DNA of 64,000 nt from an uncultured Microthrixaceae bacterium (lineage in GTDB: Bacteria; Actinomycetota; Acidimicrobiia; Acidimicrobiales; VFJN01): positions 2,878 to 66,877 of the forward strand of contig CAVPEW010000034.1 of assembly GCA_963703565.1 (NCBI GenBank), given 5' to 3'. Under the pieces are notes generated by a model. The model did not search any database. It was given only the letters and a program-made list of their open reading frames with translations, and had not been told where the DNA came from. A program made the position numbers and the translations under genes. This document shows positions 1-14,872 of this stretch, piece by piece. Position 1 is the first letter of the stretch, and each line of letters opens with the position of its first letter.

Positions 1-543
1 AACAAGCCGAGGCGAGGACCCAGGACCGAGCGGCCGTACCTCCTCCGTGGCCGGCTCAGATGCGGGCTCTGCGGACGCAAGCTCCAGGGCAGCTGGCACC
101 ACGGCGAGGCGTACTACCGGTGCCAGTACGGCGCCGAGTACGCGAGGTCGGCGCGGCTGCCGCACCCGAAGGTCGTCTACCTGCGCGGGTGGGATCTGCT
201 CCCCCACGTCGACGACTGGCTGGGCCGGCTGTTCGATCCGGAGAACGTCGACGCCACCTGCGAGGCGATCCTCGGCGCCGCCACCGAGCGGGCGTCCCCC
301 GCCGAGCGTGCCGCCGCCAGCGACCTCCTGCGCGAGTGCGACCAGAAGCTCGACCGCTACCGGGAGCTGCTCGAGGCCGGAACCGATCCCACCGTCGTCG
401 CCGGCTGGATCAGCGACGCGAAGCTCCGGAGCCGCTTCTACGAGGAAGCCGGCGTCCTCGGCACCCACCTTCCGGACTCCCGATCGGTCGACATCGACGC
501 CGACCCATGTGTCGGTATGGGTCGTGTCGGAGGGGGGACTTGA
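1..543 (+). CDS. Large serine recombinase, C-terminal part (5' end lies outside the window)
   Basis: Frame 1 is open from base 1 to TGA at 541-543. It is absent from the ORF track because no start codon lies in the window. The translation contains ...RPYLLRGRLRCGLCGRKLQGSWHHGEAYYRCQY... (recombinase zinc-ribbon Cys pattern). This is followed by ...LRECDQKLDRYRELLEAGTDPTVVAGWISDAKL... (coiled-coil tail typical of actinobacterial large serine recombinases). Track ORFs 47..565 and 60..635 are off-frame Arg/Pro-rich shadows. Confidence 0.75.
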   Translation, partial: NKPRRGPRTERPYLLRGRLRCGLCGRKLQGSWHHGEAYYRCQYGAEYARSARLPHPKVVYLRGWDLLPHVDDWLGRLFDPENVDATCEAILGAATERASPAERAAASDLLRECDQKLDRYRELLEAGTDPTVVAGWISDAKLRSRFYEEAGVLGTHLPDSRSVDIDADPCVGMGRVGGGT

Positions 544-545
544 AC
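524..545. repeat. tRNA-distal att core: 22-bp direct repeat of the tRNA-Leu 3' end
   Basis: GTGTCGGAGGGGGGACTTGAAC at 524-545 is identical to 14788-14809. The latter forms the T-arm, acceptor 3' strand, discriminator base and first C of the CCA of the intact tRNA. The match breaks on both sides. Confidence 0.85.
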
Positions 546-574
546 TCGTGCTGGCGGCGTGTTGATCGGTGCTA

Positions 575-640
575 TGTAGTTTGCGTTCGTGCTGGTCAGA
601 AGCTGTTTTTTGGCCCGGTTCGTGATGCCCTGTAGTTTGC
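575..640 (+). repeat. Sub-terminal motif TGTAGTTTGC x2, each next to GTTCGTG
   Basis: TGTAGTTTGC occurs at 575-584 and 631-640. GTTCGTG occurs at 585-591 and 618-624. A 9/10 inverted copy (GCGAACTACA) lies at 14648-14657 near the other end of the element. Confidence 0.5.
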
Positions 641-662
641 CGTAAGGCCGGATCCGGGGTCG

Positions 663-695
663 TTCGCGGACAAAGTGCTGACAAATCGCGGACAA
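663..695 (+). repeat. Sub-terminal motif TCGCGGACAA x2; includes a 20-bp copy of a right-end sequence
   Basis: TCGCGGACAA occurs at 663-672 and 685-694. The 20-mer TGCTGACAAATCGCGGACAA at 676-695 is identical to 14699-14718. These are candidate arm-type integrase or regulator binding sites. Confidence 0.5.
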
Positions 696-760
696 GCGAC
701 ACATCCCACCGTGTCAACTTCGCGTAGCGAGTCCCTGACGCGCGGAGTACCCTGCCAGCG

Positions 761-1505
761 GTGAGTCAAGCGAGCGTTGCGTCGACGATCCGCGACCGGG
801 TTCTTCGCTCGAGCGACCGCTTCTGGCGTCCCGACGACTTCGATGGCTCACCCGCCGCCGTCGCCCAAGCGCTCTCCCGACTGGCTCGCGCTGGCGACAT
901 CCGTCGAGTCCGGCGAGGGCTCTACTGGCGAGGAACGTCGACCGCACTCGGGATGGCTCCCCCGCTGCCCGGTCGCTTCGTCGACGAAGTCGTGAACGCC
1001 CGCGGCACGGGCCCAGGTGGCTGGAGCGCCGCCCTCACGCTTGGCCTGTCCACACAAGTGCCGCGCCACGAGACCGTCGCGGTCGTCGGCCGCGCGCCCC
1101 GCTCTCCCGGGACCGTTCGGTTCGTCAGCCGCGCCGCCGAGCGCGAAGCGCCGAGACGAGCGACTCCGTCCCGTGGAGGTCGCACTGCTCGAGGTCCTGC
1201 GGGACTGGAGCGTCGTCGTCGAGGTTCCGGAGCGGGACGCAGTCCGACGGATCCGCAAGCTCGTCGACGACGGAACGCTTCGCGTCGACCGTCTCGTCCG
1301 CGCATCGGCGACGGAGCCACCGCGCGTGCGCGAGCGTCTGCGGCGTCTCCTCGCTGCGCTCGGCCGACCGGCTGAAGCGCAGGCCGTGCGACCGCTTCGG
1401 AAGCTCATCGACCCTCGACGACGTCGTGCTCGCCGGGTGAGGCCACCCATCATCCGCCGTCGCGGCCACGCCACCGTCGCGCCACCGGGTTCCACACCCC
1501 ACTGA
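761..1505 (+). CDS. AbiEi_4/DUF6088-like antitoxin-domain protein, split by an apparent +1 frameshift near 1150
   Basis: The N-terminal part (track ORF 761..) reads MSQASVASTIRDRVLRSSDRFWRPDDFDGSPAAVAQALSRLARAGDIRRVRRGLYWRG, which matches my memory of DUF6088 N-termini. A sensible sequence continues in the frame of track ORF 1017..1505 (...RDERLRPVEVALLEVLRDWSVVVEVPERDAVRRIRKLVDDG...). The junction is around GAA GCG [C]CG AGA C. Confidence 0.55.
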
Positions 1506-2355
1506 CGACCTGGCCGGCGAGGACGGGATCGGCGAAGTCGGCGATGGCTCGGATCGCCTCGGCGAGGATCGCGGGCGCCGACTCATCGAGCCCACTGCGA
1601 GCCAAGAACCGGGTCCAGTCGGCCTGCCGCACCGTCGCCAGGTCCACGAGCACCGACCGGAGCGGACGAAGGTCAGAGCCCCGATGGGCTCCCGTGGCGC
1701 GGACGGCGGCGGCGAGTTGCTCTGCGTCAACCGCGTGCCGTCCGGTCAGGAGGTAGGCGTCGGCGAAGTCACGGTCACGTGTCGTCGCGTCACCTCGGTC
1801 GACCATCGTGACGATCTTCTCGGCAAGCACCGTCTCCAGCGGGTACCCGATGAGCTCGAACGGCTCGTCGAGGAGTGACGGGTAGCTCACCGCGACGGGC
1901 TCCGGCGTGACCGGGTCGCCGACGTTGATGTCGATGCGAAGCGGGAGCCGAGCTCGGTCGATGCGAGCTGGAACCGTAATTCGGACGCCGGTGTAGGGGT
2001 CGGCGTCGCGGATCACCTGCGCTCGAAGCTCCGCCGGCTCGAACGTGACGCCATCGTCGACATCGACGGCAAGAACCTCACGCACAACGCTCGAGATCGT
2101 GTCAACGTCGTTGGCGATCGCTTGGGCCAGAAGGTCGACGTCCGCGGTTGGTCGACGCTCATCGAACGCGGCGAGGAGCATGCCGCCCTTGAGCACGAGC
2201 TGACGCCGATGGGCGGAGATGGACAAGCGGAAGAGAAACCGCTCGAGGACGTAGAGGACGAGGAGCTCGTCGGTCGGTCGACCTTCTCGGCGCGCCTTGG
2301 CCCGGAGATCCAAGTACGCACGACCGCCGGCGCTGCCTCGAGTCGGCCGAGTCAT
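1450..2355 (-). CDS. abiEii: AbiEii/AbiGii-family nucleotidyltransferase toxin (DUF1814)
   Basis: 301-aa ORF. It contains ...LVLKGGMLLAAFDERRPTADVDLL... (NTase core) and a long C-terminal helical region. Its ATG overlaps the stop of the upstream AbiEi gene by 4 nt. Confidence 0.88.
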   Translation of the reverse strand: MTRPTRGSAGGRAYLDLRAKARREGRPTDELLVLYVLERFLFRLSISAHRRQLVLKGGMLLAAFDERRPTADVDLLAQAIANDVDTISSVVREVLAVDVDDGVTFEPAELRAQVIRDADPYTGVRITVPARIDRARLPLRIDINVGDPVTPEPVAVSYPSLLDEPFELIGYPLETVLAEKIVTMVDRGDATTRDRDFADAYLLTGRHAVDAEQLAAAVRATGAHRGSDLRPLRSVLVDLATVRQADWTRFLARSGLDESAPAILAEAIRAIADFADPVLAGQVVSGVWNPVARRWRGRDGG

Positions 2356-2954
2356 CCCTGCAGCACGCCGAGCGCCGATCGGACGGGTACCGAGACTCGA
2401 AGCTGGCGCGCCAAGTCGGCAAGGCGAGCCAACCTCGGCCGTGGCTGCGCGAGATAGCGGCGCAGCGCGCGATGGGCTTCGTCCTCGCCGCTGAGGTGGC
2501 GGAGCCGAAACGCGTCGACGACGGTGCGCTCGCGATCGGTGATCCAGAACCGCTCGCCACCTTCCTCTCGGACCTCGATACGCCCAAGGCCGAACGTCGC
2601 GGCGCGGAAGACGTGGACCTTGGTGGGCGGGTGGTCGATCGTCGGGCGGTGCGAGCCCTCCGGGACTGCAAGATGGACCTGGGACGGGATATCGTCAGTG
2701 AGGTCCCAGTACGACAGCGCCGAGTCGAGAGCGATCATCCCGTGCGGTGCCCGCGCGCAGACGGCGACGAAGTCGATGTTCCCGATGCCAGCGGCATCGG
2801 CAAGCTGGAAGAGGCCCCGCGACAGCTCGAGGACCTCACCCTCATCACGCAAGGCATAGAGGTCCCGCCACGAGATTCCGGCGGCAACGGCCTCCTTGGA
2901 ACGGAAGACGGGGCCGATCTCTCGGAGTCGCTCGAGCGTCTGCGCCGACGGCAT
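2352..2954 (-). CDS. abiEi: AbiEi-family antitoxin / transcriptional regulator
   Basis: Taken from MPSAQTLERLREIGPVFRSKEAVAAGISWRDLYALRDEGEVLELSRGLFQL... (wHTH N-domain) through ...RTVVDAFR... (C-domain). I chose the ATG at 2954 rather than the track start at 2999. It is coupled to abiEii. Confidence 0.82.
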   Translation of the reverse strand: MPSAQTLERLREIGPVFRSKEAVAAGISWRDLYALRDEGEVLELSRGLFQLADAAGIGNIDFVAVCARAPHGMIALDSALSYWDLTDDIPSQVHLAVPEGSHRPTIDHPPTKVHVFRAATFGLGRIEVREEGGERFWITDRERTVVDAFRLRHLSGEDEAHRALRRYLAQPRPRLARLADLARQLRVSVPVRSALGVLQG

Positions 2955-2955
2955 G

Positions 2956-3000
2956 TATGAAATCCTACAGAGGACGGACCGTCCTCGGGTGGATTTCATA
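2956..3000. promoter_or_regulatory. 45-bp nested palindrome immediately upstream of abiEi (candidate operator or RNA hairpin)
   Basis: TATGAAATCC (2956-2965) pairs with GGATTTCATA (2991-3000). The inner palindrome is GAGGACGG-A-CCGTCCTC (2970-2986). The centre is at 2978, and the structure starts 2 bp upstream of the abiEi ATG. Confidence 0.45.
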
Positions 3001-3129: not shown

Positions 3130-3265
3130 CTCGACTCCTCGGTCGGCTCTTGCGAGCGATTCTCGAGCGAACGAGGACCGTGAACGGAGGACCCCTCGTG
3201 CGACGTCGGTTGGGGAACCCGACGATCACAAACGAGCACGTCGCCGCCGTGCGATAGTCATCCGT

Positions 3266-4057
3266 GTGTCGCGTCCACCCCATGACCCGCTGACGTGGTT
3301 GAGGGATCTCTTCTCGGATTGGACGCCTCAGGTGCGTGCTCTCTTCCGAGTCGGCCAAGAGGGCACGCTTCCGCTCGACGCCGTCTCGGATGGAGACCTC
3401 CGTGCCGAACTCACGGAGAAGGGGTGGCTCCTTCCCCTGCCCGACGAATCTGCGGCGCTCTCGAACCTCTTCGAGACAGAGATTCTCGACATTGTCCACA
3501 GCGCGCTCGACGGCGAGGACGTGCGGATTCGCAAGGGGGGGAGCCGCTCGTATCCTGACTTCGAGATCGAGGGGACGTTCTTCAACGGCGGCGCGCATGC
3601 GGTCGACATCAAGTGCGCCCGCCACTCCGGCACGAGCGTGGACTCCACCATCGCGCTCTATACGGGCAACACGTACTTCCTGTTCCCCGACCTGCTGTTC
3701 CCGGGAATGCTCCGAACGTTCGGCGAGTACGACGAGCGGATCGCGATCGTCATCCTCTACCGATATCGGCCCGACCTGCAGGAGCGATTCTCAGACGTCC
3801 GGGTCGCTATCCACCCCGTGTGGCGTATCGCAGGGACGACCAAGCCCTCTTCGACTCGCCACTACATCGGCTCGGTGAACCGAGTCGATGACATCGTGGC
3901 CGGCAAGGGTGCGTTCGATACTCCGGACGAGTTCTACGCGTACTGGCGGTCGGCACAGCGGGGCTGGCCGGTGAACCCCGGCGTCGCAAAGGCGAAGAAG
4001 AGCGCTGCCGCCCTCGCTAAGGGGACGACGGCGAAGCGCAAGCCCAAGAGGAAGTAG
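3266..4057 (+). CDS. Candidate type II restriction endonuclease (PD-(D/E)xK-like)
   Basis: 263-aa ORF with a GTG start. It contains ...SRSYPDFEIEGTFFNGGAHAVDIKCAR..., which fits PD...(D/E)xK (PD then D-I-K 16 residues later). It is convergent with, and 19 bp from, the m5C methyltransferase. The C-terminus is a Lys/Ala-rich tail. Confidence 0.5.
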   Translation: MSRPPHDPLTWLRDLFSDWTPQVRALFRVGQEGTLPLDAVSDGDLRAELTEKGWLLPLPDESAALSNLFETEILDIVHSALDGEDVRIRKGGSRSYPDFEIEGTFFNGGAHAVDIKCARHSGTSVDSTIALYTGNTYFLFPDLLFPGMLRTFGEYDERIAIVILYRYRPDLQERFSDVRVAIHPVWRIAGTTKPSSTRHYIGSVNRVDDIVAGKGAFDTPDEFYAYWRSAQRGWPVNPGVAKAKKSAAALAKGTTAKRKPKRK

Positions 4058-4076: not shown

Positions 4077-5210
4077 TCAGTGCCGAGCGACGGCGGCGAC
4101 ACCCTCCGCGACCCGGTGACCGAGCAATGGAGGCACGGAATTGCCGACCTGCGATTGGATCGAGGCGCGCCGGCCGACGAAGGCGAAGGCGTCAGGGAAG
4201 GTGAAGAGCCGACGCAGCTCAGGGACCCGGAGCCGGCGGCTCTCCCAGTGGAACGGTCCGACGTTCGGCCCGGGCTGCGCCTGGATCGTGGGTGATGGTC
4301 GGCTCGGGTCCAGCTTCAGCAGGAACGACCAGTAGCGCGATCGCCAGCCGAACATGGGGCTCGGATGGCCCCGTTCGGCTGTGTAGTAGAGGTAGTTGTC
4401 ACCGGGCGGGATGTCGGGCAAGAGGTGACCCCATTGGCCGCGGACCACTTCCTCGGGCTCCGGTTCGGTCACGAGCCCAGCAAGCGCCTCGCCAGTTGTC
4501 ACATGCGGCAACGGACCGCCCGCGACCTTCCTTCGCTCCCACTCGCCATGGTGGGTCGGCAGTGGCAGTTCGGGCAGCTTCTCGGTCTTGGCGGCGCCGA
4601 CGATGAACAGGCGAGGTCGGGCCTGTGGGATGCCGTAATCGGCGGCGTTGAGAACCCGCCAGGAGAAGCGATATCCCGCCGCCTCGATCTCACGGAGAAG
4701 GCGCTCGAACGCCGGCCGGCTGGCCTTGTTGTCGAAGGTCAGCGCATACACGTTCTCGAGGATGAAGTGGCGCGGCCGCGCTTCTGCCAGTACACGGGTG
4801 TACGCCTGCAACAGGCTGGCGGCCGGATCGACGCCGTCTCGCTTCCAGTCGAGCCAGAAGCCGGACTTGGAGAAGGCGACGCATGGAGGCCCACCTACGA
4901 GCAGGTCCGGACGCTCTCGACGCTCGTAGCCGCCGGCACGAAGGATGTCGCGGGTGGTTACGCCGCCCTCGGACCCAGTCGCCAGCGGGTAGAGATCCGC
5001 CCTGAGCACTTCCCGTAGGCCAGGGAAGTACGCGCCCGCGTTCTTCTCCATCGTGTCAGCCGCGTCTTCGTCCCACTCGACTGCGACGGCCGTCCTGAAC
5101 CCGGCGGCCTCGATGCCGAGATCGAGCCCGCCCGCGCCTGCGAAGAGCGAGATCGCGTTCCCGACAGTCACGGTGACAGTCTTGTCGCTGGCCTGTGCTG
5201 CGGTGCGCAT
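4077..5210 (-). CDS. dcm: DNA (cytosine-5)-methyltransferase
   Basis: Motifs seen: I LFAGAGGLDLG, IV GGPPCVAFS, VI ENV, VIII IPQARPRLFIVG, X GNSVPPLL. The start is placed at the ATG at 5210 (MRTAAQASDK...). The track ORF extends to 5393, so the start is uncertain. Confidence 0.9.
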   Translation of the reverse strand: MRTAAQASDKTVTVTVGNAISLFAGAGGLDLGIEAAGFRTAVAVEWDEDAADTMEKNAGAYFPGLREVLRADLYPLATGSEGGVTTRDILRAGGYERRERPDLLVGGPPCVAFSKSGFWLDWKRDGVDPAASLLQAYTRVLAEARPRHFILENVYALTFDNKASRPAFERLLREIEAAGYRFSWRVLNAADYGIPQARPRLFIVGAAKTEKLPELPLPTHHGEWERRKVAGGPLPHVTTGEALAGLVTEPEPEEVVRGQWGHLLPDIPPGDNYLYYTAERGHPSPMFGWRSRYWSFLLKLDPSRPSPTIQAQPGPNVGPFHWESRRLRVPELRRLFTFPDAFAFVGRRASIQSQVGNSVPPLLGHRVAEGVAAVARH

Positions 5211-5299
5211 GGTCGGGCCCGCGAGGAGGCTGAGCTGGACGCCTGCTCGGCGCCGGTCTCTCTCAGTCGCGCGCATGCGGACGAGGGTAAACAGGGGGT

Positions 5300-5785
5300 G
5301 TGACAGGAAAGCTGGGCCCAGGCACTCGGAAACGGTCTCTGACCAGCCCACCAAGGCTCCCCGAGGGGTCGTTCGCGTCGAGCGACACCGCACGGCTTCG
5401 CATGCAGACGCAACGGCGTGTCGGAACCGCGCCCGAGCTCGCGGTTCGCCGCGCAGCCCACCGCCTCGGCCTGCGGTACTTCGTGAATCGGCGTCCGGTT
5501 CCAGCGCTCCGGCGCACAGCAGACTTCATGTTCCCGACCGAGCGGGTCGCGGTCTTCGTCGATGGATGTTTCTGGCACGGGTGCCCGCAGCACGGTCGGG
5601 GCGCGATCCGTGAGAACACCTGGTACTGGCCCGAGAAGATCGCCAGCAACCAACGACGCGACCGGGACACCGACGCCAGACTCCTCGTCGAGGGCTGGCT
5701 GCCGCTTCGAATCTGGGAACACGAGGAGCCCAGCGACGCTGCTCATCGGATCCGCGACGCTGTGAGGGAGCGTCGCCGCCGCTGA
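5300..5785 (+). CDS. vsr: Very-short-patch repair endonuclease
   Basis: Contains ...RRVGTAPELAVRRAAHRLGLRYFVNRRPVPALRRTADFMFPTERVAVFVDGCFWHGCPQH...NTWYWPEKIASNQRRDRDTDARLLVEGWLPLRIWEHE. This matches the Vsr signature FVDGCFWHG..W..KI..N..RD. It is divergent from dcm. The start is uncertain. Confidence 0.85.
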   Translation: MTGKLGPGTRKRSLTSPPRLPEGSFASSDTARLRMQTQRRVGTAPELAVRRAAHRLGLRYFVNRRPVPALRRTADFMFPTERVAVFVDGCFWHGCPQHGRGAIRENTWYWPEKIASNQRRDRDTDARLLVEGWLPLRIWEHEEPSDAAHRIRDAVRERRRR

Positions 5786-5841
5786 TGATGGAAGGCGCTC
5801 GATGCGCGTCGCTTCGGCCCCGTCTCGAGCGATCATCGGGC

Positions 5842-9000: not shown

Positions 9001-9356
9001 TCGACGACGCTGGCTACGGCGGCATCGTGGGCGTCAAGGACGTCCTGGCGAACGGCGTCATCACCGAACGCGAACAGCATCGACACGGACTTGGGTGCCG
9101 AGCAGGTGACGTCGTAGCCGCGCACGGTTCGGTCAGTGTGGCGAGTACCGAGCGCGCGGCCAGAGACCGGATCAACGCCGGCCATGAGATCAAGGAAGTC
9201 GTCTTCCTCGATGGCGCCGGTGAGTCCGAGCCGGTCCGCTCCTCTGCCGTGCCACATGCCAGGCGGCTCGCCGCGGTCGAGGTAGTAGCCGAGCTGGTCC
9301 TCGACGTAGTAGCGCCCAGCGTCGGCGCCCCGCAGAGTCGTGGTCCGCGCGGTCAC
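6053..9356 (-). CDS. traA: MOBF-type conjugative relaxase (TrwC/TraA-like) with a helicase domain; apparent +1 frameshift near 8890
   Basis: The N-terminal relaxase domain is in the frame of track ORF 8748..9851 (GTG at 9356: VTARTTTLRGADAGRYYVEDQLGYYL...DVTCSAPKSVS...AAVFRQHTSRA). It continues in ORF 6053..8935 (..LLDPQLHSHAVVVN...). A P-loop ATPase/helicase region follows (VGPAGTGKTT...IVDETAMV...), then a long coiled-coil tail. The junction is AGC CGA GCT [T]CT CGA TCC CC. Confidence 0.8.
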
Positions 9357-9444
9357 GTTTCGCTCCCGCACGAGCGCGTGCACTCGTCTGTCCTTCGGTG
9401 CGACAGGTGGGCTGCGGGGCGGCGGGACATCGGGAAGCTCGCAA

Positions 9445-9780
9445 TCAGGCGGGTCGGCCGTCGGGAACGACGGTGATGCCGGACTCGTCGAGATGGACGA
9501 CGTAGGTCGTCGGTCGGAAGGTGGCGCCTGGCCGTCGGTCGACGGGCTCGATGACGCCGGCGCGGGCGAGCTGGCGCAGGCACCGGTGCACCGTGTCCTT
9601 CGACAGGAACTGGAGCCGCTCTGCGATCTCGCGGGTGCTCGCCTGCGCGACGAGATCACTGTCGCGACACTCCGCCCGGGCCAGCAGATCGTGGAGCACT
9701 GCCAGCGCTTGCGGCCCGTTGGCGCGGAGGAACGACAGCGCCGCCGGATAGCGATGCTCGATCCGGACCTCAGGCGGCAT
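9445..9780 (-). CDS. Winged-helix DNA-binding protein (hypothetical)
   Basis: Taken from MPPEVRIEHRYPAALSFLRANGPQALAVLHDLLARAE...STREIAERLQFLSKDTVHRCLRQLARAGVIEPV (HTH). It lies directly upstream of the relaxase gene. The start was chosen inside track ORF 9445..9936. Confidence 0.5.
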   Translation of the reverse strand: MPPEVRIEHRYPAALSFLRANGPQALAVLHDLLARAECRDSDLVAQASTREIAERLQFLSKDTVHRCLRQLARAGVIEPVDRRPGATFRPTTYVVHLDESGITVVPDGRPA

Positions 9781-9997
9781 CGCTGCCTCCCGTCGGGTCC
9801 AGCTCGATGAGCGCCAGTCGCAGCAGCGCCGCCGTGGGGATACGGAGGCAACGACCGAACTGCACCACCGGGATGCCTTCCCTGCCGCCGGACTCGCGCC
9901 AGAGGCGCGTCTGCTCATAGAGCTGCGACCGACCAAGCTGGGTCAGCTCCTGTGCTTGCTCGACCCGCAGGAACGGCGGAAGGTCGTCGTATCGCAT
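9770..9997 (-). CDS. xis: Excisionase-like / MerR-type HTH DNA-binding protein
   Basis: The translation is MRYDDLPPFLRVEQAQELTQLGRSQLYEQTRLWRESGGREGIPVVQFGRCLRIPTAALLRL. This 75-aa protein has the layout of Xis/AlpA-type HTH_17 proteins. It is divergent from the XRE-integrase pair. Confidence 0.6.
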   Translation of the reverse strand: MRYDDLPPFLRVEQAQELTQLGRSQLYEQTRLWRESGGREGIPVVQFGRCLRIPTAALLRLALIELDPTGGSDAA

Positions 9998-10021
9998 CGC
10001 CACCTCCGGCGAAGCCCAACA

Positions 10022-10059
10022 CCTTACTCTGGCGTAAGGCATCATTCCATGATGGAATG
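10022..10059. promoter_or_regulatory. Two palindromes in the xis / XRE divergent intergenic region (candidate operators)
   Basis: CCTTAC-n6-GTAAGG lies at 10022-10039. A perfect 17-bp palindrome CATTCCAT-G-ATGGAATG lies at 10043-10059. Both sit between the xis start (9997) and the XRE start (10123). Confidence 0.4.
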
Positions 10060-10122
10060 GCGGAACGGACAGCGCAACACCGGGGAGCCCGCGACCTGTC
10101 CCCCATCTGAGACGGAGGGTGC

Positions 10123-10893
10123 ATGGCGAGAGCCAAGGCCGAGGACAAGCGAGGCTGGGCGGCAAGCCAGGTCGTCGCGCACAACCTCACGAAGGCGCGC
10201 GAGCTTCGGGGGCTCACACAGGCCGAGATCGCCGAGCGCCTGAGCCGATTCACCGGCGCGCCGTGGAGCCCGACGACCGTGGCGCAGGCCGAGGGATCGG
10301 TCAGCGGTCAGCGGATCCGGCAGTTCACCGCCAACGAGCTCGTCGCGCTCGCGCGCACCTTCGACCTGCCGGTGCTGTTCTTCTTCCTGCCGCCTGATGA
10401 CGGCGAGGGCCGGCTCGTGACGGACGATGCCAAGGGCGGGCTGCCGTGGGAGTATCTGCTCGTCGTCCTGCTCGGGCATCGTGGCAACTTCCCGGTGCTG
10501 GCCGACCGCACGGCCAACTGGGCCCACCTCCTGGCCAACGGCATCGACATCCCGCGCTCGGACGCCCTGCCCGACGACGACCCGATCCTCAGTGAAATCG
10601 CCGGCAGCCGTCGCCGGGAGCCGCTGCTCCCCGAGGATGTTCTCGCCGCTGTGTTCCATGGCTTGGCGTCACGGCACATGCGTGGCGCTCCCCGGCCGGG
10701 TGACGACGTCGCCACCATGGCCGCCAACCTTCGTGGTCTCGCCGATGCGCTGACCGCCTTCAACAACTACCGACCCGGCGAGTTCGTCGACGAACGAGTT
10801 GCCGCCGAGGTCGCCGAGCAACGCAAGCAACGCGAGCGACGACGGCGAACCGCCGCCGAGGCCGCGCCGGCCGGAGAGGACGACGATGAGTAG
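10123..10893 (+). CDS. XRE-family HTH regulator with a C-terminal domain of unknown function
   Basis: The N-terminus ...VVAHNLTKARELRGLTQAEIAERLSRFTG...TVAQAEG is a Cro/C1-type HTH. The stop overlaps the integrase ATG by 8 nt. Confidence 0.75.
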   Translation: MARAKAEDKRGWAASQVVAHNLTKARELRGLTQAEIAERLSRFTGAPWSPTTVAQAEGSVSGQRIRQFTANELVALARTFDLPVLFFFLPPDDGEGRLVTDDAKGGLPWEYLLVVLLGHRGNFPVLADRTANWAHLLANGIDIPRSDALPDDDPILSEIAGSRRREPLLPEDVLAAVFHGLASRHMRGAPRPGDDVATMAANLRGLADALTAFNNYRPGEFVDERVAAEVAEQRKQRERRRRTAAEAAPAGEDDDE

Positions 10894-12250
10894 CCGAGCG
10901 AACGTCAGCAAGCGAGGATCGACCTGGACGTACTACGTCTACGTGACCGGCGGCGACGGCCGGCGCCGACAAGTGTCCAAGGGCGGGTTCCGGACCCGCA
11001 AGGAGGCCGAGGCCGCTCGCGTTCGAGCGCTGAGCACCTTGCAGAACGGCACGTGGGTACGCCCGGAGCGGGTCACGGTCCGCGAGTTCCTCGAGGACGA
11101 GTGGTTGCCGACGCAGGCGCCGCCAACCCTGGAGGAGAGCACCTACCGCTCCTACCGCCGCTACGTCCGGCTCCACGTCGTGCCCTACATCGGCGGCATC
11201 CCGCTCCAACAGCTCAAGCCGATGGAGCTCACGGCGCTCTACCGCCAGCTGCTGGAATCCGGCCGCCGCCAGCCGACGCCGCCCGCCCGGGTGCACCCGC
11301 CCGAACTCGGCGCCATGGTCGACCGCCTTCGAGCCGACGGTCTCACGTGGCAGGCGGTCGCCGACGAGGTGGCCGCGGCCTTCCCTGATGCCGGCGGGTT
11401 TACTCGTCACGCCGTCGCCGGCCTCCACCGGCGCCGTCACGCGCCTGCGCCCGCATCGTCCCGGCCGGCAGGGCTCAAGCCGCGCACCGTGCTCTACATC
11501 CACTCGATCATCCACGCAGCGCTGAAGGACGCCATGCGGTGGAACCGAGTGGCGCGCAACGTCGCCGACGCCGCCATTCCCCCGCCAACCGGCGCGACCA
11601 AGCGCGGTCAGCACACGACCTGGACCGGCGACCAGCTCCGCCGCTTCATCGACTTCATCGCCGAGGACCGCTACCTGACGCCGTGGATCTTCCTCGCGAC
11701 GACCGGCTGCCGCCGCGGCGAGTGCCTCGGCCTTCGCTGGGGCGATCTGGACCTCGACGGGTCCACGGCGGTCATCTCACGCCAGGTGACATCGATCGAC
11801 CACACGATCGTCGTCAAGGAGCTGCCCAAGACGAAGCGCGGGCACATGGTCTCGCTCGACTCCAGCACAGTGACCGTGCTCCGTCGGTGGCGAGCGCAGC
11901 AGAATGAGGAGAAGCTCCTCGTCGGCCCCGGCTACGCGGACGAGGGCTACGTGTTCTGCAAGCCCGACGGCACCGTGTATGACCCCGACCGCTTCAGCCG
12001 GGAGTTCGACCGCAAGCAGGTGCAATTCAATCGGGCGCACGCCGATGATGCGCTACCGAGGCTGACGCTCCACGGCCTGCGCCACACGTGGGCGACGTTG
12101 GCGCTCCACGAGGGCATCGACATCAAGGTCGTCAGCGACCGGCTCAACCACTCGAGCACCTTCGTGACGCGGGAGATCTACACGCACGTCACGCCTCCGA
12201 TGCAGAGCGACGCCGCCGAGCGCGTAGCGAACTCGATCTTCGGCGGTTGA
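10886..12250 (+). CDS. int: Tyrosine-type site-specific integrase
   Basis: Taken from the ATG at 10886 (MSSRANVSKRGSTWTYYVYV...RRQVSKGGFRTRKEAEAAR, an arm-binding-type N-domain). The catalytic region contains ...TGCRRGECLGLRWGDLDL... and ...HGLRHTWATLALHEGIDIKVVSDRLNHSSTFVTREIYTHV (R, HxxR, H, Y). Confidence 0.9.
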   Translation: MSSRANVSKRGSTWTYYVYVTGGDGRRRQVSKGGFRTRKEAEAARVRALSTLQNGTWVRPERVTVREFLEDEWLPTQAPPTLEESTYRSYRRYVRLHVVPYIGGIPLQQLKPMELTALYRQLLESGRRQPTPPARVHPPELGAMVDRLRADGLTWQAVADEVAAAFPDAGGFTRHAVAGLHRRRHAPAPASSRPAGLKPRTVLYIHSIIHAALKDAMRWNRVARNVADAAIPPPTGATKRGQHTTWTGDQLRRFIDFIAEDRYLTPWIFLATTGCRRGECLGLRWGDLDLDGSTAVISRQVTSIDHTIVVKELPKTKRGHMVSLDSSTVTVLRRWRAQQNEEKLLVGPGYADEGYVFCKPDGTVYDPDRFSREFDRKQVQFNRAHADDALPRLTLHGLRHTWATLALHEGIDIKVVSDRLNHSSTFVTREIYTHVTPPMQSDAAERVANSIFGG

Positions 12251-12348
12251 CCACCGGAATCTGTGGTTCCCCGTGAGGCCGATTGCTGAGCTTCCGCCGG
12301 GTGATCCGCGGGCCGCCGCTCGACGTCCGCCGGGCGTCACTACGGTGC

Positions 12349-13374
12349 ATGTCGATGGGTGACATCACGTTCATCGGTCAGCGGGAGCCGGTCGACGAGT
12401 ACGGCCGAGCCCTCTACGCGGTAGCGCGCTCGATCATCCGGGCGCAGCTCGACCAGCTGACCGCCGACGACCTCACCGACCTGAACTGCGACCGCGTCGA
12501 CGTGTCAATGCGGCAACTCGCGAAGGTCTCTCGCCTGGACAGAGACAAAGGCATGAGGGGTGACGGCTTCGAGTGGGCGGTGCACGAGGCCACTACCGGC
12601 GGCGAGCCACGAGTAGTCCAGCTGCTGTCAGACGTGCTGCCTCGACTGTCACCGCGGGCATTCAAGGGAATGGGCTCGCCGACGTCCCTGCTCTTTGGCT
12701 ACGAGCGCGCGAAGTACCTCGGCTTCCTCGACGCCGTTGTGGACAACGCGGGGGGCGACGCTCTGCTCCTTCCAGACGGCAACCAGGGCCGGCCCTTCTA
12801 CTTCGGGCCGTGGGTCACGCTGGCCGCGAAGGGCGAGCGGGCAGAGCCGCAGCTGCGCCCGCGCATCAAGAAGGTGTGGAAGACCGATCTGTTCCTGTCC
12901 TCACAGGATTCCTGGCGCTACGTAGCAGCCACGGTGAAGAGCAACTGGAAGCTGCTTGAGGCCGGACCAGGTCTCCGTGTTGGCATCGTTCCGGAAGCCA
13001 AGGACCTTCGTCCGGGAGTGCGTTACAAGGACGGTCTGTGGCTTGCCGTGTTGCCTGATCCGGACGGCTTCATGGGCCTCTTCAACGACGCGTACTGGTC
13101 GGTCGCCGCGTCTGTGTGCACGCTCGGCAAGCACGTGCGACCGCCCTACTACATGAAACCAACGGCAAAGGGTGAGCGACTGCAAGCGCAGCTCGAGAGG
13201 TATCCGACGGCGAAGGTCATCGACATCGAAGGCGCCCTCAACGAGGCCGCCCAGCAAGATCTCGTCGCGGTAGAACACACCCTCGTGTCGGTCCAAGCTC
13301 CAGAGTGGCTTCATATCAACGAGACGCGCACGCCCGTGATCGCAGCCAAGCCAAGTTTCGAGCCTCTGGACTAG
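12349..13374 (+). CDS. Hypothetical protein (341 aa), weak PD-(D/E)xK-like pattern
   Basis: Long ORF with sensible composition in a lower-GC patch, start ATG 12349 (MSMGDITFIGQ...). Possible nuclease-like elements are GFEWAVHEA, KTDLFLSS and ATVKSNWK. I recognise no family. Confidence 0.55.
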   Translation: MSMGDITFIGQREPVDEYGRALYAVARSIIRAQLDQLTADDLTDLNCDRVDVSMRQLAKVSRLDRDKGMRGDGFEWAVHEATTGGEPRVVQLLSDVLPRLSPRAFKGMGSPTSLLFGYERAKYLGFLDAVVDNAGGDALLLPDGNQGRPFYFGPWVTLAAKGERAEPQLRPRIKKVWKTDLFLSSQDSWRYVAATVKSNWKLLEAGPGLRVGIVPEAKDLRPGVRYKDGLWLAVLPDPDGFMGLFNDAYWSVAASVCTLGKHVRPPYYMKPTAKGERLQAQLERYPTAKVIDIEGALNEAAQQDLVAVEHTLVSVQAPEWLHINETRTPVIAAKPSFEPLD

Positions 13375-13414
13375 CGCCGCGCTAGACGTCCCACGACCGC
13401 TCGCACGATCCGCC

Positions 13415-13960
13415 TCATGGGACCTTTCGCCGACGGGTCCGCGTCGCCGCCTTCGTAGTCGCGATGAGGGCGTCGATCGTTTCGAGCATCATGAGCGCGC
13501 GGGCCGGCTCGTCGTCGATCAAGGAGTGAGCCCTCGGGTTTCGCCATGCGCCGACGACGCCTTGGCACAGGTGCATGTGTCCACGCTGCTCGCTCTCATC
13601 GCTCTTGATCCTACCTGCGTTCACCCGGAGCAGTGGTGCGTTCGGAGAGAACGCCACCGTCATCAACGCGTCCCCGTCTTCCGTCCGTCCGGTCCGGCCC
13701 CGAACGCATTCGTTCAAGGCCTTCACCCCCGCCTCGACCGCATCTGCGTAGTGGGTCGACACGAAGCGGGACCGCGTCGCTGCTCGCAGATCCGGGTCGG
13801 CTACTCGGCGGTCGAACTCGGCGAGCAGATCGTCCCTCGGGGGGAGGACCTCCGGGGCAGCCGCCGTCGCTTGGTCGTGCGGCTGGGAGAACTCGGCAAG
13901 GTCTCCCGCCAACCGCCGCGCGATCCCGATCAGTCTCTCGCCGCCCGTCATGCGAGTCAC
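13415..13960 (-). CDS. TIGR02391 (Hypoth_ymh)-family protein
   Basis: The C-terminal region ...THYADAVEAGVKALNECVRGRTGRTEDGDALMTVAFS...GVVGAWRNPRAHSLIDDEPARALMMLETIDALI matches the TIGR02391 pattern as I remember it (AV..A.K......dG..Lm..aF ... RNp.aH). The GTG start overlaps the upstream gene's stop (GTGA). Confidence 0.7.
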   Translation of the reverse strand: MTRMTGGERLIGIARRLAGDLAEFSQPHDQATAAAPEVLPPRDDLLAEFDRRVADPDLRAATRSRFVSTHYADAVEAGVKALNECVRGRTGRTEDGDALMTVAFSPNAPLLRVNAGRIKSDESEQRGHMHLCQGVVGAWRNPRAHSLIDDEPARALMMLETIDALIATTKAATRTRRRKVP

Positions 13961-14631
13961 TGCTTGTACAAGTGCCTCGCCATGCTCTCGAAGATCTGAT
14001 CAATCTGCTCGGCCGAAGCATCCGCAGGAATGTGGATCTGGATATCGAGATGCACGTTCGGCCCCGCGCCGGGGGTCTGCTTCGACGGCTCCGGAGTGAC
14101 GATCGCCGGCGGGTCGGGTGGCGTCGAGGTCGTCCTTGTTGTCGGAGCTGCCGCCTTCTTCGCTGGCGTCTTCTTCGTCGTCGCCTTCTTTGGCTCGGTC
14201 GCCACCGTGTCGGGCACTTGCTTGCTGGCGATCATCACGTAGGTCGCCGCCATCTGCCGAGAGTTCGACCCGCCGAAGCCCTTGTGGTCAAACCAGGTCT
14301 TGACGAGCTGAGGGTCCGGCGCACCCGACCCGTCCGCAAGGGCCGACAAGTCGGCGGGATAGATCTCGTCGAGGATCTCCTGACACGCGTCCGCGTAAGA
14401 GGCGTCGACCCGCCACTTGTTGCCCCGCGCGGTGAGCGCGCCATCCTCGTCGATCAAGCCCAGCTTCCGCATCGGGCTCACGGTGTTGTCGCGCGCGCTC
14501 TCTGGACTGGCCATGCCCATCAAGGCTGCGACCGTCGACGGCGTGAACTTCGTTGAGGGGGCGGCCGCCGCGCGGGAGCGAAGTGCTCGCCACGCCTTTG
14601 TGGTGACCTTCGGATAACCATTCGATGCCAT
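13957..14631 (-). CDS. DUF5343-like protein with a Pro/Thr/Lys-rich linker
   Basis: The N-domain reads MASNGYPKVTTKAWRALRSRAAAAPSTKFTPSTVAALMGMASPESARDNTVSPMRKLGLIDEDGALTARGNKWR...EILDEIYPADL...WFDHKGFGGSNSRQMAATYVMIAS. This resembles DUF5343 proteins from memory. It is followed by a low-complexity linker and the conserved-looking tail NVHLDIQIHIPADASAEQIDQIFESMARHLYKQ. Confidence 0.6.
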   Translation of the reverse strand: MASNGYPKVTTKAWRALRSRAAAAPSTKFTPSTVAALMGMASPESARDNTVSPMRKLGLIDEDGALTARGNKWRVDASYADACQEILDEIYPADLSALADGSGAPDPQLVKTWFDHKGFGGSNSRQMAATYVMIASKQVPDTVATEPKKATTKKTPAKKAAAPTTRTTSTPPDPPAIVTPEPSKQTPGAGPNVHLDIQIHIPADASAEQIDQIFESMARHLYKQ

Positions 14632-14647
14632 GCGTGCCTCCGCCCGC

Positions 14648-14718
14648 GCGAACTACATCGATGAGATTACCCGCGCCGTGTAACAGTCCACAGAGGGTTG
14701 CTGACAAATCGCGGACAA
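14648..14718. repeat. Right-end copies of the sub-terminal motifs
   Basis: GCGAACTACA at 14648-14657 is the inverted 9/10 copy of TGTAGTTTGC. TGCTGACAAATCGCGGACAA at 14699-14718 is identical to 676-695. Both lie 70-140 bp inside the tRNA-proximal att core. Confidence 0.5.
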
Positions 14719-14785
14719 ACGGCCTCTGGAGCCCGCTCGCCGGCCTCGCCGCACCGCCCTGACCAGCACCTTCGCGCTGATCCTG

Positions 14786-14872
14786 TGGTGTCGGAGGGGG
14801 GACTTGAACCCCCACGCCCTTGCGGGCACCAGCCCCTCAAGCTGGCGCGTCTGCCTATTCCGCCACTCCGAC
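14786..14872 (-). tRNA. tRNA-Leu (anticodon GAG), class II, with encoded CCA
   Basis: The reverse complement folds by hand as follows. Acceptor GTCGGAG/CTCCGAC. D-arm GCG-GAATAGGCAGA-CGC. Anticodon stem CCAGC/GCTGG with loop TTGAGGG (anticodon GAG). Long variable arm GCCC-GCAA-GGGC. T-arm GGGGG-TTCAAGT-CCCCC. Discriminator A followed by CCA. Confidence 0.93.
14788..14809. repeat. tRNA-proximal att core (22 bp, inside the tRNA-Leu 3' end)
   Basis: Identical to 524-545. Confidence 0.85.

What the first reader, a model, noticed from the sequence alone, without database searches (positions are those of the whole stretch)
524..14809. 14.3-kb integrative element in tRNA-Leu(GAG), bounded by a perfect 22-bp direct repeat
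- **Seen:** GTGTCGGAGGGGGGACTTGAAC occurs at 524-545 and again at 14788-14809.
- The second copy is the T-arm through the first C of the CCA of an intact, hand-foldable tRNA-Leu(GAG).
- Between the copies lie a tyrosine integrase (R..HxxR..H..Y), an Xis-like HTH protein, an XRE regulator, a MOBF relaxase and defence cargo.
- **Established knowledge:** tyrosine-integrase islands duplicate the tRNA 3' end on insertion.
- **Inference:** no coupling protein, T4SS or FtsK-like translocase is present. The element is therefore either a mobilizable element that hijacks a helper or a decayed ICE.
- The integrase is not the gene next to the tRNA. Three cargo genes are wedged between them.
Basis: partly seen in the sequence, partly recalled or inferred. 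Interest (0 to 1): 0.6.

Follow-up and report, generated by a model that had tools for sequence, protein, structure and literature searches.

The report
Mobilizable defence island in tRNA-Leu
This is a real 14.3-kb mobile island inserted in a leucine tRNA gene of an uncultured Acidimicrobiales bacterium: it belongs to a previously undescribed but ordinary family of helper-dependent (mobilizable) elements that carry anti-phage genes, and this copy has a broken transfer gene.

Summary
GTGTCGGAGGGGGGACTTGAAC occurs at 524-545 and 14788-14809 and nowhere else in the 2.89-Mb genome. The second copy is the 3' end of the only tRNA-Leu(GAG).

Between the copies lies a conserved five-gene core: tyrosine integrase, HTH protein, Xis-like protein, winged-helix protein and MOBF relaxase. 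About 100-160 bp is conserved at each end, with GACAA-type repeats. Two variable bays carry defence genes.

The same core, ends and 22-bp repeat occur in at least 11 other Acidimicrobiia assemblies. Cargo and far-side flanks differ there. On one foreign contig the core is 92.8% identical to this one, while the adjoining host DNA is only 69-76% identical, so the element moves horizontally.

No member carries a coupling protein, VirB4 or FtsK-like gene. The family is therefore a relaxase-only mobilizable element, not a decayed ICE. A candidate helper with a type IV secretion system lies on another contig of this genome.

This copy has a +1 T insertion in relaxase motif III, unique in the family. 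It is probably transfer-dead, though possibly still excisable.

The left flank is not plain chromosome but the remnant of a serine-recombinase element.

Ordinary kind, new family.

The parts
3..543 (+). Left flank, not part of the element: C-terminal remnant of a large serine recombinase whose last codons (VGGGT-stop) lie inside the 22-bp repeat
   Evidence: Pfam Recombinase and Zn_ribbon_recom hits, no Resolvase domain. The same tail abuts attL or the intact tRNA in other genomes.
524..545 (+). attL core: displaced copy of the tRNA-Leu(GAG) 3' end (22 bp)
   Evidence: Homology to related elements stops here.
546..707 (+). Conserved left end of the element (arm region). It holds GTGTAGTT twice, GTGCTGGTCAG, and three GACAA repeats ending in GACAAGCGACACA.
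   Evidence: 79-88% identical in L021, L022, L023, L024, L025, L026 and L032, then homology breaks.
761..1375 (+). AbiEi-like gene matching only the N-terminal half of the profile (probably truncated)
   Evidence: PADLOC AbiEi 2.1e-46, profile positions 9-132 of 230. Pfam AbiEi_4 and DUF6088 hits are weak.
1450..2355 (-). AbiEii toxin (nucleotidyltransferase)
   Evidence: Pfam 3.5e-39. PADLOC 1.3e-83.
2352..2999 (-). AbiEi antitoxin/regulator
   Evidence: PADLOC 1.9e-66. Pfam AbiEi_4.
3266..4057 (+). Candidate type II restriction endonuclease
   Evidence: Weak hits only: Pfam EcoRV 4.2e-5, below cut-off; PADLOC REase_II 1.5e-8.
4077..5393 (-). C5 cytosine DNA methyltransferase (true start probably near 5156)
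   Evidence: Pfam DNA_methylase 5.4e-49. PADLOC MTase_II and DruM hits.
5300..5785 (+). Vsr very-short-patch repair endonuclease
   Evidence: Pfam Vsr 5.8e-14.
5785..6012 (+). 75-aa ORF of unknown function, also present in L021
   Evidence: 76% DNA match to L021 8224-8361. No family hit.
6053..9356 (-). MOBF (TrwC-type) relaxase-helicase, about 1100 aa if intact. It is split by a +1 T insertion near 8892, inside motif III (HTSRA|LDPQLHSH).
   Evidence: TrwC profile 4-152 lies in frame 8748-9851; profile 152-285 plus AAA_30 lies in frame 6053-8935. NCBIfam MobF. The single extra T relative to L021 is shown. All other family members are in frame at this point.
9368..9393 (+). Candidate oriT nic region: GCACG-AGCG-CGTGC hairpin, then ACTCGTCT, then GTCC
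   Evidence: The block ACAGACGAGTGCAC (- strand) is invariant in 11 members. In three paralogous modules of this genome the hairpin is kept through different sequences. The layout matches R388 IR2 plus GTATTGTCT/nic (PMC4176350). This is an inference.
9445..9780 (-). 111-aa winged-helix protein, a possible relaxosome accessory factor
   Evidence: LexA_DNA_bind and HTH_24 hits are weak. Conserved in the core at 71-94%.
9770..9997 (-). 75-aa Xis-like (excisionase/MerR-type) DNA-binding protein
   Evidence: HTH_17 E=0.003. AlphaFold model pLDDT 77; best PDB folds are RdfS excisionase, Pukovnik Xis and Tn916 Xis.
9998..10122 (.). Divergent control region with palindromes CCTTAC-N6-GTAAGG and CATTCCAT-G-ATGGAATG
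10123..10893 (+). 256-aa HTH (XRE-like) protein that overlaps the int start by 8 nt
   Evidence: HTH_31 E=0.0026, below cut-off. Conserved in all members at 70-97%.
10886..12250 (+). Tyrosine integrase, 454 aa, intact
   Evidence: Pfam Arm-DNA-bind_4, SAM_3 and Phage_integrase. PHROG integrase 7.4e-72. Catalytic residues present and no indel relative to L021.
12283..13374 (+). Cargo: 363-aa protein of unknown function
   Evidence: phrog_30306, 8.3e-95. No Pfam, NCBIfam or PADLOC hit.
13415..13960 (-). Cargo: Hypoth_Ymh (HEPN-like) protein
   Evidence: Pfam 4.7e-26. PADLOC Aga_HEPN and PD-Lambda-3_B.
13957..14631 (-). Cargo: DUF5343-like protein, PDC-M34A candidate defence gene
   Evidence: PADLOC 3.5e-10. 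Pfam hit weak.
14689..14787 (+). Conserved right end of the element (arm region): TGACAAATCGCGGACAAAC and CTGACCAGCAC
   Evidence: 84-89% identical in L022, L023 and L027. The motifs are conserved in seven members.
14788..14809 (+). attR core: the 22-bp repeat inside the intact tRNA
14786..14872 (-). tRNA-Leu(GAG), intact and single copy

Best explanation
**What it is.** The stretch is a 14,264-bp integrative mobilizable element of the relaxase-only type ("iMOB"). It is site-specifically inserted in the 3' end of tRNA-Leu(GAG).

**How the family works.**
- *Integration (inferred from anatomy and family conservation).* An arm-binding tyrosine integrase recombines a 22-bp core in the element with the identical 22 bp of the tRNA (T-loop to C74). 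This rebuilds the tRNA and leaves a displaced copy at the far end. GACAA and GTGTAGTT repeats within about 100-160 bp of each end would serve as arm sites.
- *Excision (inferred).* A 75-aa Xis-like protein, transcribed divergently from an HTH-int operon across a 125-bp region with palindromes, would direct excision.
- *Transfer (inferred).* The circle would be nicked by its own MOBF relaxase at a hairpin-plus-GTCT site just upstream of the relaxase gene. It would leave through the coupling protein and type IV secretion system of another element. A VirD4/VirB4 element sits on contig C21 of this genome.
- *Cargo (shown).* Two bays turn over: one between the left end and the relaxase, one between int and the tRNA. 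Here they hold AbiE, an m5C restriction-modification system with Vsr, and a Ymh/DUF5343 pair.

**State of this copy.** The relaxase has a +1 frameshift between its catalytic tyrosines and its histidine triad. The copy can probably still excise and reintegrate, but it cannot start its own transfer.

**Shown versus inferred.**
- Shown: the repeat, the tRNA, gene identities, family synteny, horizontal spread, absence of mating-pore genes, and the frameshift in the assembly.
- Inferred: arm-site function, the Xis role, oriT, helper use, and that the frameshift is not an assembly error.
For: - **Boundaries.** The 22-bp repeat is unique and is the tRNA 3' end.
- **Family.**
  - The same 22-bp repeat bounds related islands in G033 (16.2 kb), L022 (19.2 kb) and L024. 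attL or attR junctions of the same kind occur in G001, L021, L023, L025-27, L029 and L032-37.
  - The five-gene core is syntenic in L021-23, L027-29, L031-34 and L038.
  - Conserved blocks are the core (window 6050-12240) and both ends. The bays differ.
- **Horizontal spread.** On contig JBQTIQ010000024.1 the core is 92.8% identical over 4.7 kb, while host flank identity is 69-76%. L021 has a 91.5% identical core with unrelated flank and cargo.
- **Integrase.** It is intact.
- **Xis fold.**
- **No mating-pore genes.**
  - The genes listed under parts fill the island.
  - Family loci have no T4CP, VirB4 or VirB11 homologue.
  - The genome has only the chromosomal FtsK.
- **Helper.** C21 carries VirD4, a VirB4-like ATPase, a VirB11-like ATPase, an NlpC/P60 hydrolase and an integrase.
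- **oriT candidate.**
- **Frameshift.** It is one of only four indels in 6.2 kb against L021. The other three are intergenic or a 3-bp in-frame change. It is unique among family members.
- **Composition.** GC is 68.1% for the element and 71.8% for the genome.
Against: - No empty site, circular junction or read-level evidence could be obtained.
- The frameshift could be an assembly error. All hosts are uncultured MAGs, so nothing is tested experimentally.
- The helper contig may not belong to the same cell, because it was assigned by binning. No relaxase closer than 53% identity exists in this genome to complement the broken one.
- Several relatives also show lesions in int or the relaxase. Many copies may therefore be fossils, or those MAGs may carry sequencing errors.
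- The HTH_31 and HTH_17 assignments are below Pfam cut-offs.
Confidence: 0.75

Rival explanations
1. It is the same element but fully functional. The extra T at about 8892 would be an assembly or consensus error, and the relaxase would be an intact protein of about 1100 aa.
For: - It is a single 1-nt insertion (T to TT).
- Every relative is in frame at that point.
- The rest of the core shows only indels compatible with purifying selection.
- Reads could not be inspected.
Against: - The other long genes of this assembly that were examined are unbroken: int, the paralogous relaxases on C59 and C75, and the T4CP. Local assembly quality therefore looks good.
- The site is not a long homopolymer.
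- Decay of int or the relaxase is common in relatives.
Confidence: 0.2
2. It is a decayed integrative conjugative element that once carried its own coupling protein and type IV secretion system and lost them by deletion.
For: - Signs of decay are present: the relaxase frameshift and a truncated AbiEi-like gene.
- The closest plasmid relaxases (at most 34% identity) sit on actinobacterial plasmids that include conjugative ones.
Against: - At least 11 syntenic relatives at 60-98% protein identity all lack mating-pore genes. They share the same compact core directly flanked by the conserved ends and cargo.
- The compact form is therefore the family's normal state.
Confidence: 0.03
3. It is an actinomycete-type AICE (double-stranded DNA transfer by an FtsK/TraB-like translocase), a prophage or a phage satellite.
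For: - The host is an actinobacterium.
- The element has int-xis at a tRNA.
- The winged-helix protein gives faint hits to replication initiators.
- The 363-aa cargo protein belongs to a PHROG.
Against: - No FtsK_SpoIIIE gene lies in the island, and the genome has only one, on C18.
- No Rep, capsid, terminase or portal gene was found. PHROG hits are limited to the integrase, an unknown family and weak HTH matches.
- An HUH MOBF relaxase points to single-strand transfer.
Confidence: 0.02

Closest known systems
Canonical integrative mobilizable elements that encode their own relaxase but no coupling protein or mating pore (NBU1/NBU2, Tn4555, IMESag-rpsI; "iMOB" in recent classification)
   Same: - Site-specific tyrosine integrase with a small excision factor.
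- Insertion in a tRNA 3' end with a direct repeat.
- Own relaxase and (candidate) oriT, with no T4CP or T4SS.
- TA and R-M cargo.
- Sources: PMC5704250; bioRxiv 10.64898/2026.01.13.699239.
   Different: - The relaxase is MOBF with a fused helicase. The 2017 review states that no known canonical IME then had MobF or MobH, and that only one IME (ATE-1, MobV) was known in Actinobacteria.
- The hosts are uncultured Acidimicrobiia.
- Mobilization is untested.
- This copy's relaxase is frameshifted.
R388 TrwC / F TraI MOBF relaxase-oriT systems
   Same: - TrwC domain plus an SF1B helicase.
- YY near the N-terminus and an HxDxxxHxH-type motif (TSRALDPQLHSH in intact relatives).
- Upstream 5-bp hairpin with a 4-nt loop, followed by about 8 nt ending in GTCT, as in R388 IR2-GTATTGTCT/nic (PMC4176350).
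   Different: - At most 34% identical to any plasmid relaxase in PLSDB.
- Located on an integrated element with no cognate TrwB.
- The nic site has not been mapped.
Actinomycete ICEs (AICEs: pSAM2, SLP1) and T4SS-type actinobacterial ICEs
   Same: Actinobacterial hosts, an int-xis module, and tRNA 3'-end integration with a rebuilt tRNA (PMC3218068, PMC3429521).
   Different: It has no TraB/FtsK translocase, no Rep and no T4SS. It has a relaxase instead.
Defence-carrying integrated elements with cargo hot spots (IMEs/ICEs in Botelho 2023; pipolins; P4-like satellites)
   Same: A conserved mobility core with rapidly exchanged defence cargo at fixed positions. IMEs are dense in defence genes (PMC10201445, PMC11551731).
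   Different: The mobility core is different. One bay lies between int and the att site, so int is never the att-adjacent gene.
CIME / accretion-mobilization arrays (ICESt1-type tandem elements)
   Same: - Tandem stacking at one att site: two members on JBQTIQ010000024.1, and C75/C59 at tRNA-Leu(CAG) in this genome.
- An int-less, att-flanked 5.7-kb derivative (L024).
-.
   Different: These are seen only as sequence arrangements. The partner at this tRNA also includes an unrelated serine-recombinase element.

Membership tests
Integrative mobilizable element, relaxase-only (iMOB) | Site-specific recombinase and att sites bounding the element | tested here: met
   Intact tyrosine integrase. Unique 22-bp direct repeat at the tRNA 3' end. 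Conserved ends.
Integrative mobilizable element, relaxase-only (iMOB) | Own relaxase gene | tested here: inconclusive
   The MOBF relaxase is present but carries a +1 frameshift in this copy. It is intact (1100 aa) in close relatives such as P0001/L021 and in frame in L032.
Integrative mobilizable element, relaxase-only (iMOB) | oriT in cis | tested here: inconclusive
   A conserved hairpin-plus-GTCT motif lies upstream of the relaxase gene. No nicking data exist.
Integrative mobilizable element, relaxase-only (iMOB) | No coupling protein or mating-pore genes | tested here: met
   All ORFs are accounted for. Family loci are negative.
Integrative mobilizable element, relaxase-only (iMOB) | Transfer dependent on a helper conjugative element | not testable with these tools
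   There is only a candidate helper on C21. The hosts are uncultured.
Integrative conjugative element (T4SS type) | VirB4 ATPase, T4CP and other mating-pore genes inside the element | tested here: not met
   None are in the island or in relatives.
AICE (actinomycete ICE) | FtsK/TraB-like dsDNA translocase and a Rep protein | tested here: not met
   PF01580 hits only C18 in the genome. No Rep family hit was found.
MOBF relaxases | TrwC/MobF N-terminal relaxase domain with tyrosines and a histidine triad, plus a C-terminal SF1 helicase | tested here: met
   - NCBIfam NF041492 MobF scores 103.3 bits against a cut-off of 100 for the N-terminal part.
- TrwC and AAA_30 domains.
- RYYVED and TSRALDPQLHSH motifs in the intact relative.
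- Here the gene is a frameshifted copy.
Lambda-type (arm-binding) tyrosine integrases | Arm-binding N-domain, core-binding domain, and a catalytic domain with R-H-x-x-R-H-Y | tested here: met
   Pfam PF14657, PF14659 and PF00589. The residues are seen in the sequence. Arm-site binding itself was not tested.
Excisionase (Xis/RDF, MerR-like winged helix) | Small winged-helix fold of the Xis/RdfS type, encoded next to int | tested here: inconclusive
   HTH_17 is below cut-off. Fold matches RdfS, Pukovnik Xis and Tn916 Xis with probability 0.97-0.99, but E = 0.05-0.8 and TM about 0.5-0.68.
AbiE (type IV TA / abortive infection) | Adjacent AbiEi and AbiEii genes | tested here: met
   PADLOC 1.9e-66 and 1.3e-83 with a 4-nt overlap.
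Type II restriction-modification | Methyltransferase plus a cognate endonuclease | tested here: inconclusive
   The MTase is strong and Vsr is present. The endonuclease has only weak hits.
Prophage or phage satellite | Virion, packaging or satellite hallmark genes | tested here: not met
   PHROG hits are only the integrase, one unknown family and weak HTH matches.

The most novel reading that the evidence does not exclude
The 3' end of tRNA-Leu(GAG) in Acidimicrobiales may be a shared landing pad for two unrelated mobile-element families that stack in tandem.

- One family is this MOBF/tyrosine-integrase element. It may act as a dedicated shuttle for anti-phage genes, with two exchange bays, one of them between int and att.
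- The other is a large-serine-recombinase element. The last five codons and stop of its recombinase ORF (VGGGT*) are supplied by the tRNA-derived 22-mer.
- If the serine recombinase's crossover lies inside its own 3' end, integration would change its C-terminus. That could act as a switch dependent on the integration state.
- Relaxase-dead copies like this one, and int-less derivatives like L024, might still move in trans.
Probability: 0.2. Interest if true: 0.55.

Novelty: new member of a known kind. Interest (0 to 1): 0.35.

Why it matters
- It gives a well-delimited example, with a dozen relatives, of a relaxase-only mobilizable island in a class known almost only from metagenomes (Acidimicrobiia).
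- It defines for this family the att core, the arm repeats, a candidate oriT and two cargo bays.
- The bays are a practical place to look for new anti-phage genes: the phrog_30306 protein, the Ymh/DUF5343 pair, and SIR2-DUF4020, GmrSD, TIR and AIPR in relatives.
- MOBF relaxases were not among the canonical IMEs reviewed in 2017, so the family widens that picture modestly.
- Nothing here changes how such elements are thought to work.

Tried and rejected
- **Empty site in relatives.** The 40 nearest genomes share only the tRNA, and at most 67% identity in one flank. An exact empty-junction pattern found nothing in the metagenome contigs.
- **Synteny-level empty site through the upstream dynamin-like GTPase.** Its homologues are never on the tRNA-Leu(GAG) contig in relatives, so it is not a conserved neighbour.
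- **22-mer as a dispersed repeat:** rejected, two copies only.
- **Decayed ICE, AICE, prophage:** rejected (see rivals).
- **Sequence search of the HTH protein and Xis against PDB:** nothing useful.
- **Loci from the genome search** could not be read in the Python box, so G018, G027 and G033 were examined only with the listed tools.
- **C40** was examined as a possible continuation of the helper. It is instead another relaxase fragment next to a serine-recombinase remnant.
- **RNAalifold on the relaxase-upstream region.** It gave invariant stems without covariation inside the family. Covariation appears only when the three paralogous modules are compared by eye and by folding.

Full report
**1. 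The observation**

GTGTCGGAGGGGGGACTTGAAC is at 524-545 and 14788-14809, both perfect. No other match exists with up to three mismatches, and none is expected by chance. The window is C34:2878-66877 of a 2.89-Mb, 86-contig assembly. In the whole assembly the 22-mer occurs only at these two places.

ARAGORN and Rfam both call an intact tRNA-Leu(GAG) at 14786-14872 on the minus strand. It is the only tRNA-Leu(GAG) in the genome.

Read on the tRNA strand, the repeat runs from the T-loop through the T-stem 3' half, the acceptor 3' strand and A73 to C74. One repeat plus the DNA between the two copies is 14,264 bp.

**2. Gene content**

GC3-guided ORF choice with Pfam, NCBIfam, PADLOC and PHROG scans fills the island, from left to right:

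| Coordinates | Strand | Call |
|---|---|---|
| 761-1375 | + | AbiEi-like gene, N-terminal half of the profile only |
| 1450-2355, 2352-2999 | - | AbiEii and AbiEi |
| 3266-4057 | + | weak restriction-endonuclease candidate |
| 4077-5393 | - | C5 methyltransferase |
| 5300-5785 | + | Vsr |
| 5785-6012 | + | 75-aa ORF |
| 6053-9356 | - | MOBF relaxase-helicase |
| 9445-9780 | - | 111-aa winged-helix protein |
| 9770-9997 | - | 75-aa Xis-like protein |
| 9998-10122 |. | control region with two palindromes |
| 10123-10893 | + | 256-aa HTH protein, overlapping int by 8 nt |
| 10886-12250 | + | tyrosine integrase |
| 12283-13374 | + | phrog_30306 protein |
| 13415-13960 | - | Hypoth_Ymh (HEPN-like) |
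| 13957-14631 | - | DUF5343 / PDC-M34A |

There is no room for a coupling protein, VirB4 or FtsK-like gene, and no hit to one.

The integrase has an arm-binding domain, a SAM-like domain and a catalytic domain, with R, HxxR, H and Y in place.

The Xis call is weak by sequence (HTH_17, E=0.003). An AlphaFold model built on 11 homologues (pLDDT 77) finds the RdfS excisionase, mycobacteriophage Pukovnik Xis and Tn916 Xis among its best PDB folds.

**3. The relaxase is broken in this copy**

Pfam places TrwC profile positions 4-152 in one frame (8748-9851). Positions 152-285 plus the helicase fall in another frame (6053-8935).

The closest relative in the protein database, P0001, is 95% identical and 1100 aa long. 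It lies on NCBI contig CDIKIM010000101.1.

A 6.2-kb alignment of that contig with the window is 91.5% identical and has only four indels. Three are intergenic or a 3-bp in-frame change. The fourth is an extra T in the window near 8892.

That insertion turns HTSRALDPQLHSH into HTSRASRSP... It separates the N-terminal tyrosines (RYYVED) from the histidine triad.

All other family members are in frame at this point. Other long genes of this assembly that I looked at are unbroken. I therefore take the frameshift as probably real (about 0.75).

**4. A family, and evidence that it moves**

Names place the hosts in Acidimicrobiia/Acidimicrobiales. All are metagenome-assembled genomes.

*Synteny and boundaries*
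- The five-gene core (int, HTH, Xis-like, winged helix, relaxase) is syntenic in L021, L022, L023, L027, L028, L029, L031, L032, L033, L034 and L038. Protein identity ranges from about 45% to 99%, mostly 60-98%.
- The same 22-bp repeat bounds islands of 16.2 kb in G033, 19.2 kb in L022 and 5.7 kb in L024.
- In the same-genus genome G001 the two junctions lie on separate contigs.

*What is conserved*
- Only three blocks are conserved against the window: the core (about 6050-12240), the left end (521-707) and the right end (14689-14884).
- Homology to L021 stops 7 nt before the int stop codon and 5 nt after the relaxase stop. Both cargo bays start right at the core.
- The left end carries GTGTAGTT twice, GTGCTGGTCAG, and three GACAA repeats, up to GACAAGCGACACA. 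Homology vanishes after that in nine members.
- The right end carries TGACAAATCGCGGACAAAC and CTGACCAGCAC in seven members.
- This is the layout expected for arm-type and core-type integrase sites. Their function is inferred.

*Horizontal spread*
- On contig JBQTIQ010000024.1 (isolate SAW267) one core is 92.8% identical to the window over 4.7 kb. The host DNA beyond the tRNA on the same contig is 69-76% identical to the window's right flank.
- L021 has a 91.5% identical core. Its cargo is different, and its flank has no close counterpart in this genome.
- The element is thus far more similar between hosts than the hosts are to each other.

**5. Mobilizable, not a decayed ICE**

- The Pfam gene lists of L021, L022 and L023 show no mating-pore gene.
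- Queries made from this genome's own VirD4, VirB4-like and VirB11-like proteins hit none of the family loci within 10 kb.
- The compact form is therefore the normal state of the family.
- In this genome PF01580 finds only the chromosomal FtsK on C18.
- The only T4CP is on the 27.5-kb contig C21. It sits next to a VirB4-like ATPase, a polytopic membrane protein, an NlpC/P60 hydrolase, a VirB11/T2SSE ATPase and a tyrosine integrase. This is a plausible helper, with the caveat that contigs of a binned genome need not come from one cell.

**6. Candidate oriT**

The 85-nt spacer upstream of the relaxase start contains ACAGACGAGTGCAC. It is invariant in all 11 members although the surrounding spacer varies.

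On the opposite (window +) strand, 9368-9393 reads GCACG-AGCG-CGTGC ACTCGTCT GTCC. That is a 5-bp hairpin with a 4-nt loop, followed by 8 nt ending in GTCT.

The three paralogous int-relaxase modules of this genome (C40, C59, C75) have a different hairpin sequence at the same register, followed by ACTCGTCT, ACTTGTCT or ACCTGTCT.

This is the layout of the R388 nic region, IR2 hairpin followed by GTATTGTCT/nic (PMC4176350). It is a lead by analogy, not a mapped site.

If the analogy holds, the + strand would be transferred starting at about 9390. The int side would enter first and the relaxase gene last.

**7. The int-to-tRNA slot**

It is a family rule. Int always points at tRNA-Leu(GAG), separated by a variable gap:

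| Locus | Gap between int and tRNA (kb) |
|---|---|
| L029 | 1.0 |
| L034 | 1.5 |
| L037 | 2.3 |
| window | 2.5 |
| L035 | 2.5 |
| L036 | 3.5 |
| L027 | 3.6 |
| G033 | about 6 |
| L022 | 6.7 |

The slot holds GmrSD and SIR2-DUF4020 in G033. In L022 it holds TIR and TPR genes.

**8. The left flank**

The DNA left of 524 is not plain chromosome. The ORF ending at 543 is the C-terminal 384 aa of a large serine recombinase, with Recombinase and zinc-ribbon domains but no catalytic Resolvase domain. Its last codons, VGGGT-stop, are nt 3-20 of the 22-mer.

- The same ending in the same frame occurs in G033, L022, L023 and L032. L032 has a full-length gene with the YGRVSTEDQ motif.
- Tail-like sequence also abuts attL in G001, L025 and L033.
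- In G018 and G027 the tail abuts the intact tRNA. That is the arrangement obtained by deleting the island in silico.

The simplest reading is tandem accretion. A serine-recombinase element sat at the tRNA 3' end first. The tyrosine-integrase element then inserted into the rebuilt tRNA.

Stacking is common:
- Two family members lie in tandem on the SAW267 contig.
- In this genome a sister module sits next to tRNA-Leu(CAG) on C75.
- On C59, a 22.6-kb sister is bounded by a 22-bp repeat of the tRNA-Leu(CAG) 3' end.

**9. What could not be done**

- No empty site or circular junction was found.
- Reads were unavailable.
- All hosts are uncultured.

**10. Comparison and verdict**

The element works like the canonical relaxase-only IMEs (NBU1-type; "iMOB"). 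It meets the tested criteria for that kind. The exceptions are that its relaxase is frameshifted here and that oriT and helper use are inferred.

It is not an ICE, an AICE or a prophage.

The 2017 review of IMEs listed none with MobF relaxases and only one IME in Actinobacteria (PMC5704250). Later surveys treat relaxase-only islands and their defence cargo as common (PMC10201445; bioRxiv 10.64898/2026.01.13.699239). The nearest plasmid relaxases are at most 34% identical.

This is a new family of a known kind. It is a solid annotation with useful cargo bays, not a surprise.

Noticed in passing
window 3-543 (G000:C34:~2300-3420); L032 7552-9264; L018 873-2539; L013 ~14674-15498; L014 ~2510-2700: A large serine recombinase gene runs into the 3' end of tRNA-Leu(GAG). 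Its last five codons and stop (VGGGT*) are tRNA-derived in five genomes. Here it is a remnant without the catalytic domain, and in L032 it is full length. It appears to be a second, unrelated element family using the same tRNA.
   Followed up: partly
G000:C75:133942-141980 and G000:C59:2409-24981: Sister int-Xis-relaxase modules (40-54% protein identity) lie at tRNA-Leu(CAG). C59 has a 22.6-kb block bounded by the 22-mer GTGGGCGAGGGGGGACTTGAAC (the tRNA-Leu(CAG) 3' end) with no tRNA on that contig. This suggests a tandem array split between contigs.
   Followed up: partly
G000:C21:4755-27105: A conjugative-element fragment carries a tyrosine integrase, a VirB11/T2SSE ATPase, a LysM protein, an NlpC/P60 hydrolase, a VirB4-like ATPase and a VirD4 coupling protein. 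It holds the only T4CP in the genome, and the contig ends right after it.
   Followed up: partly
L024 (Ga0209587_1001695) 4396-10157: A 5.7-kb island lies between the same 22-bp repeat and tRNA-Leu(GAG). It keeps the family's left-end arm region but has no integrase or relaxase; it carries AbiE, an SbcD-like phosphoesterase and two unknown genes. It looks like a CIME-like derivative. A further arm-like fragment is at 905-946.
   Followed up: partly
L027/L032 (JBQTIQ010000024.1, isolate SAW267): Two family members sit on one contig. One is next to the tRNA (core 76% identical to the window). The other is 93% identical with a truncated int. An intact serine recombinase gene lies between them.
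   Followed up: partly
G000:C40:6364-11036: Another MOBF relaxase (47-70% identical, in two ORFs) lies directly next to another N-terminally truncated serine-recombinase fragment and more defence-like genes.
   Followed up: no
G000:C34:257-1765 (upstream of the window): A dynamin-like GTPase gene lies left of the serine-recombinase remnant. Homologues occur in 15 of the 40 relatives and never on their tRNA-Leu(GAG) contig. The tRNA's 3' side therefore seems variable well beyond this island.
   Followed up: partly
window 2965-3129 (- strand): A 54-aa ORF with a strong coding-type GC pattern (0.75/0.29/0.82) lies just upstream of abiEi. The DNA there is 79% conserved in the SAW267 element's AbiE region.
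   Followed up: no
L037, L038, L040 (MFD-labelled MAGs): Family genes in these loci are split into many frames. This looks more like indel-prone assemblies than decay, so lesions in relatives should not be over-read.
   Followed up: no
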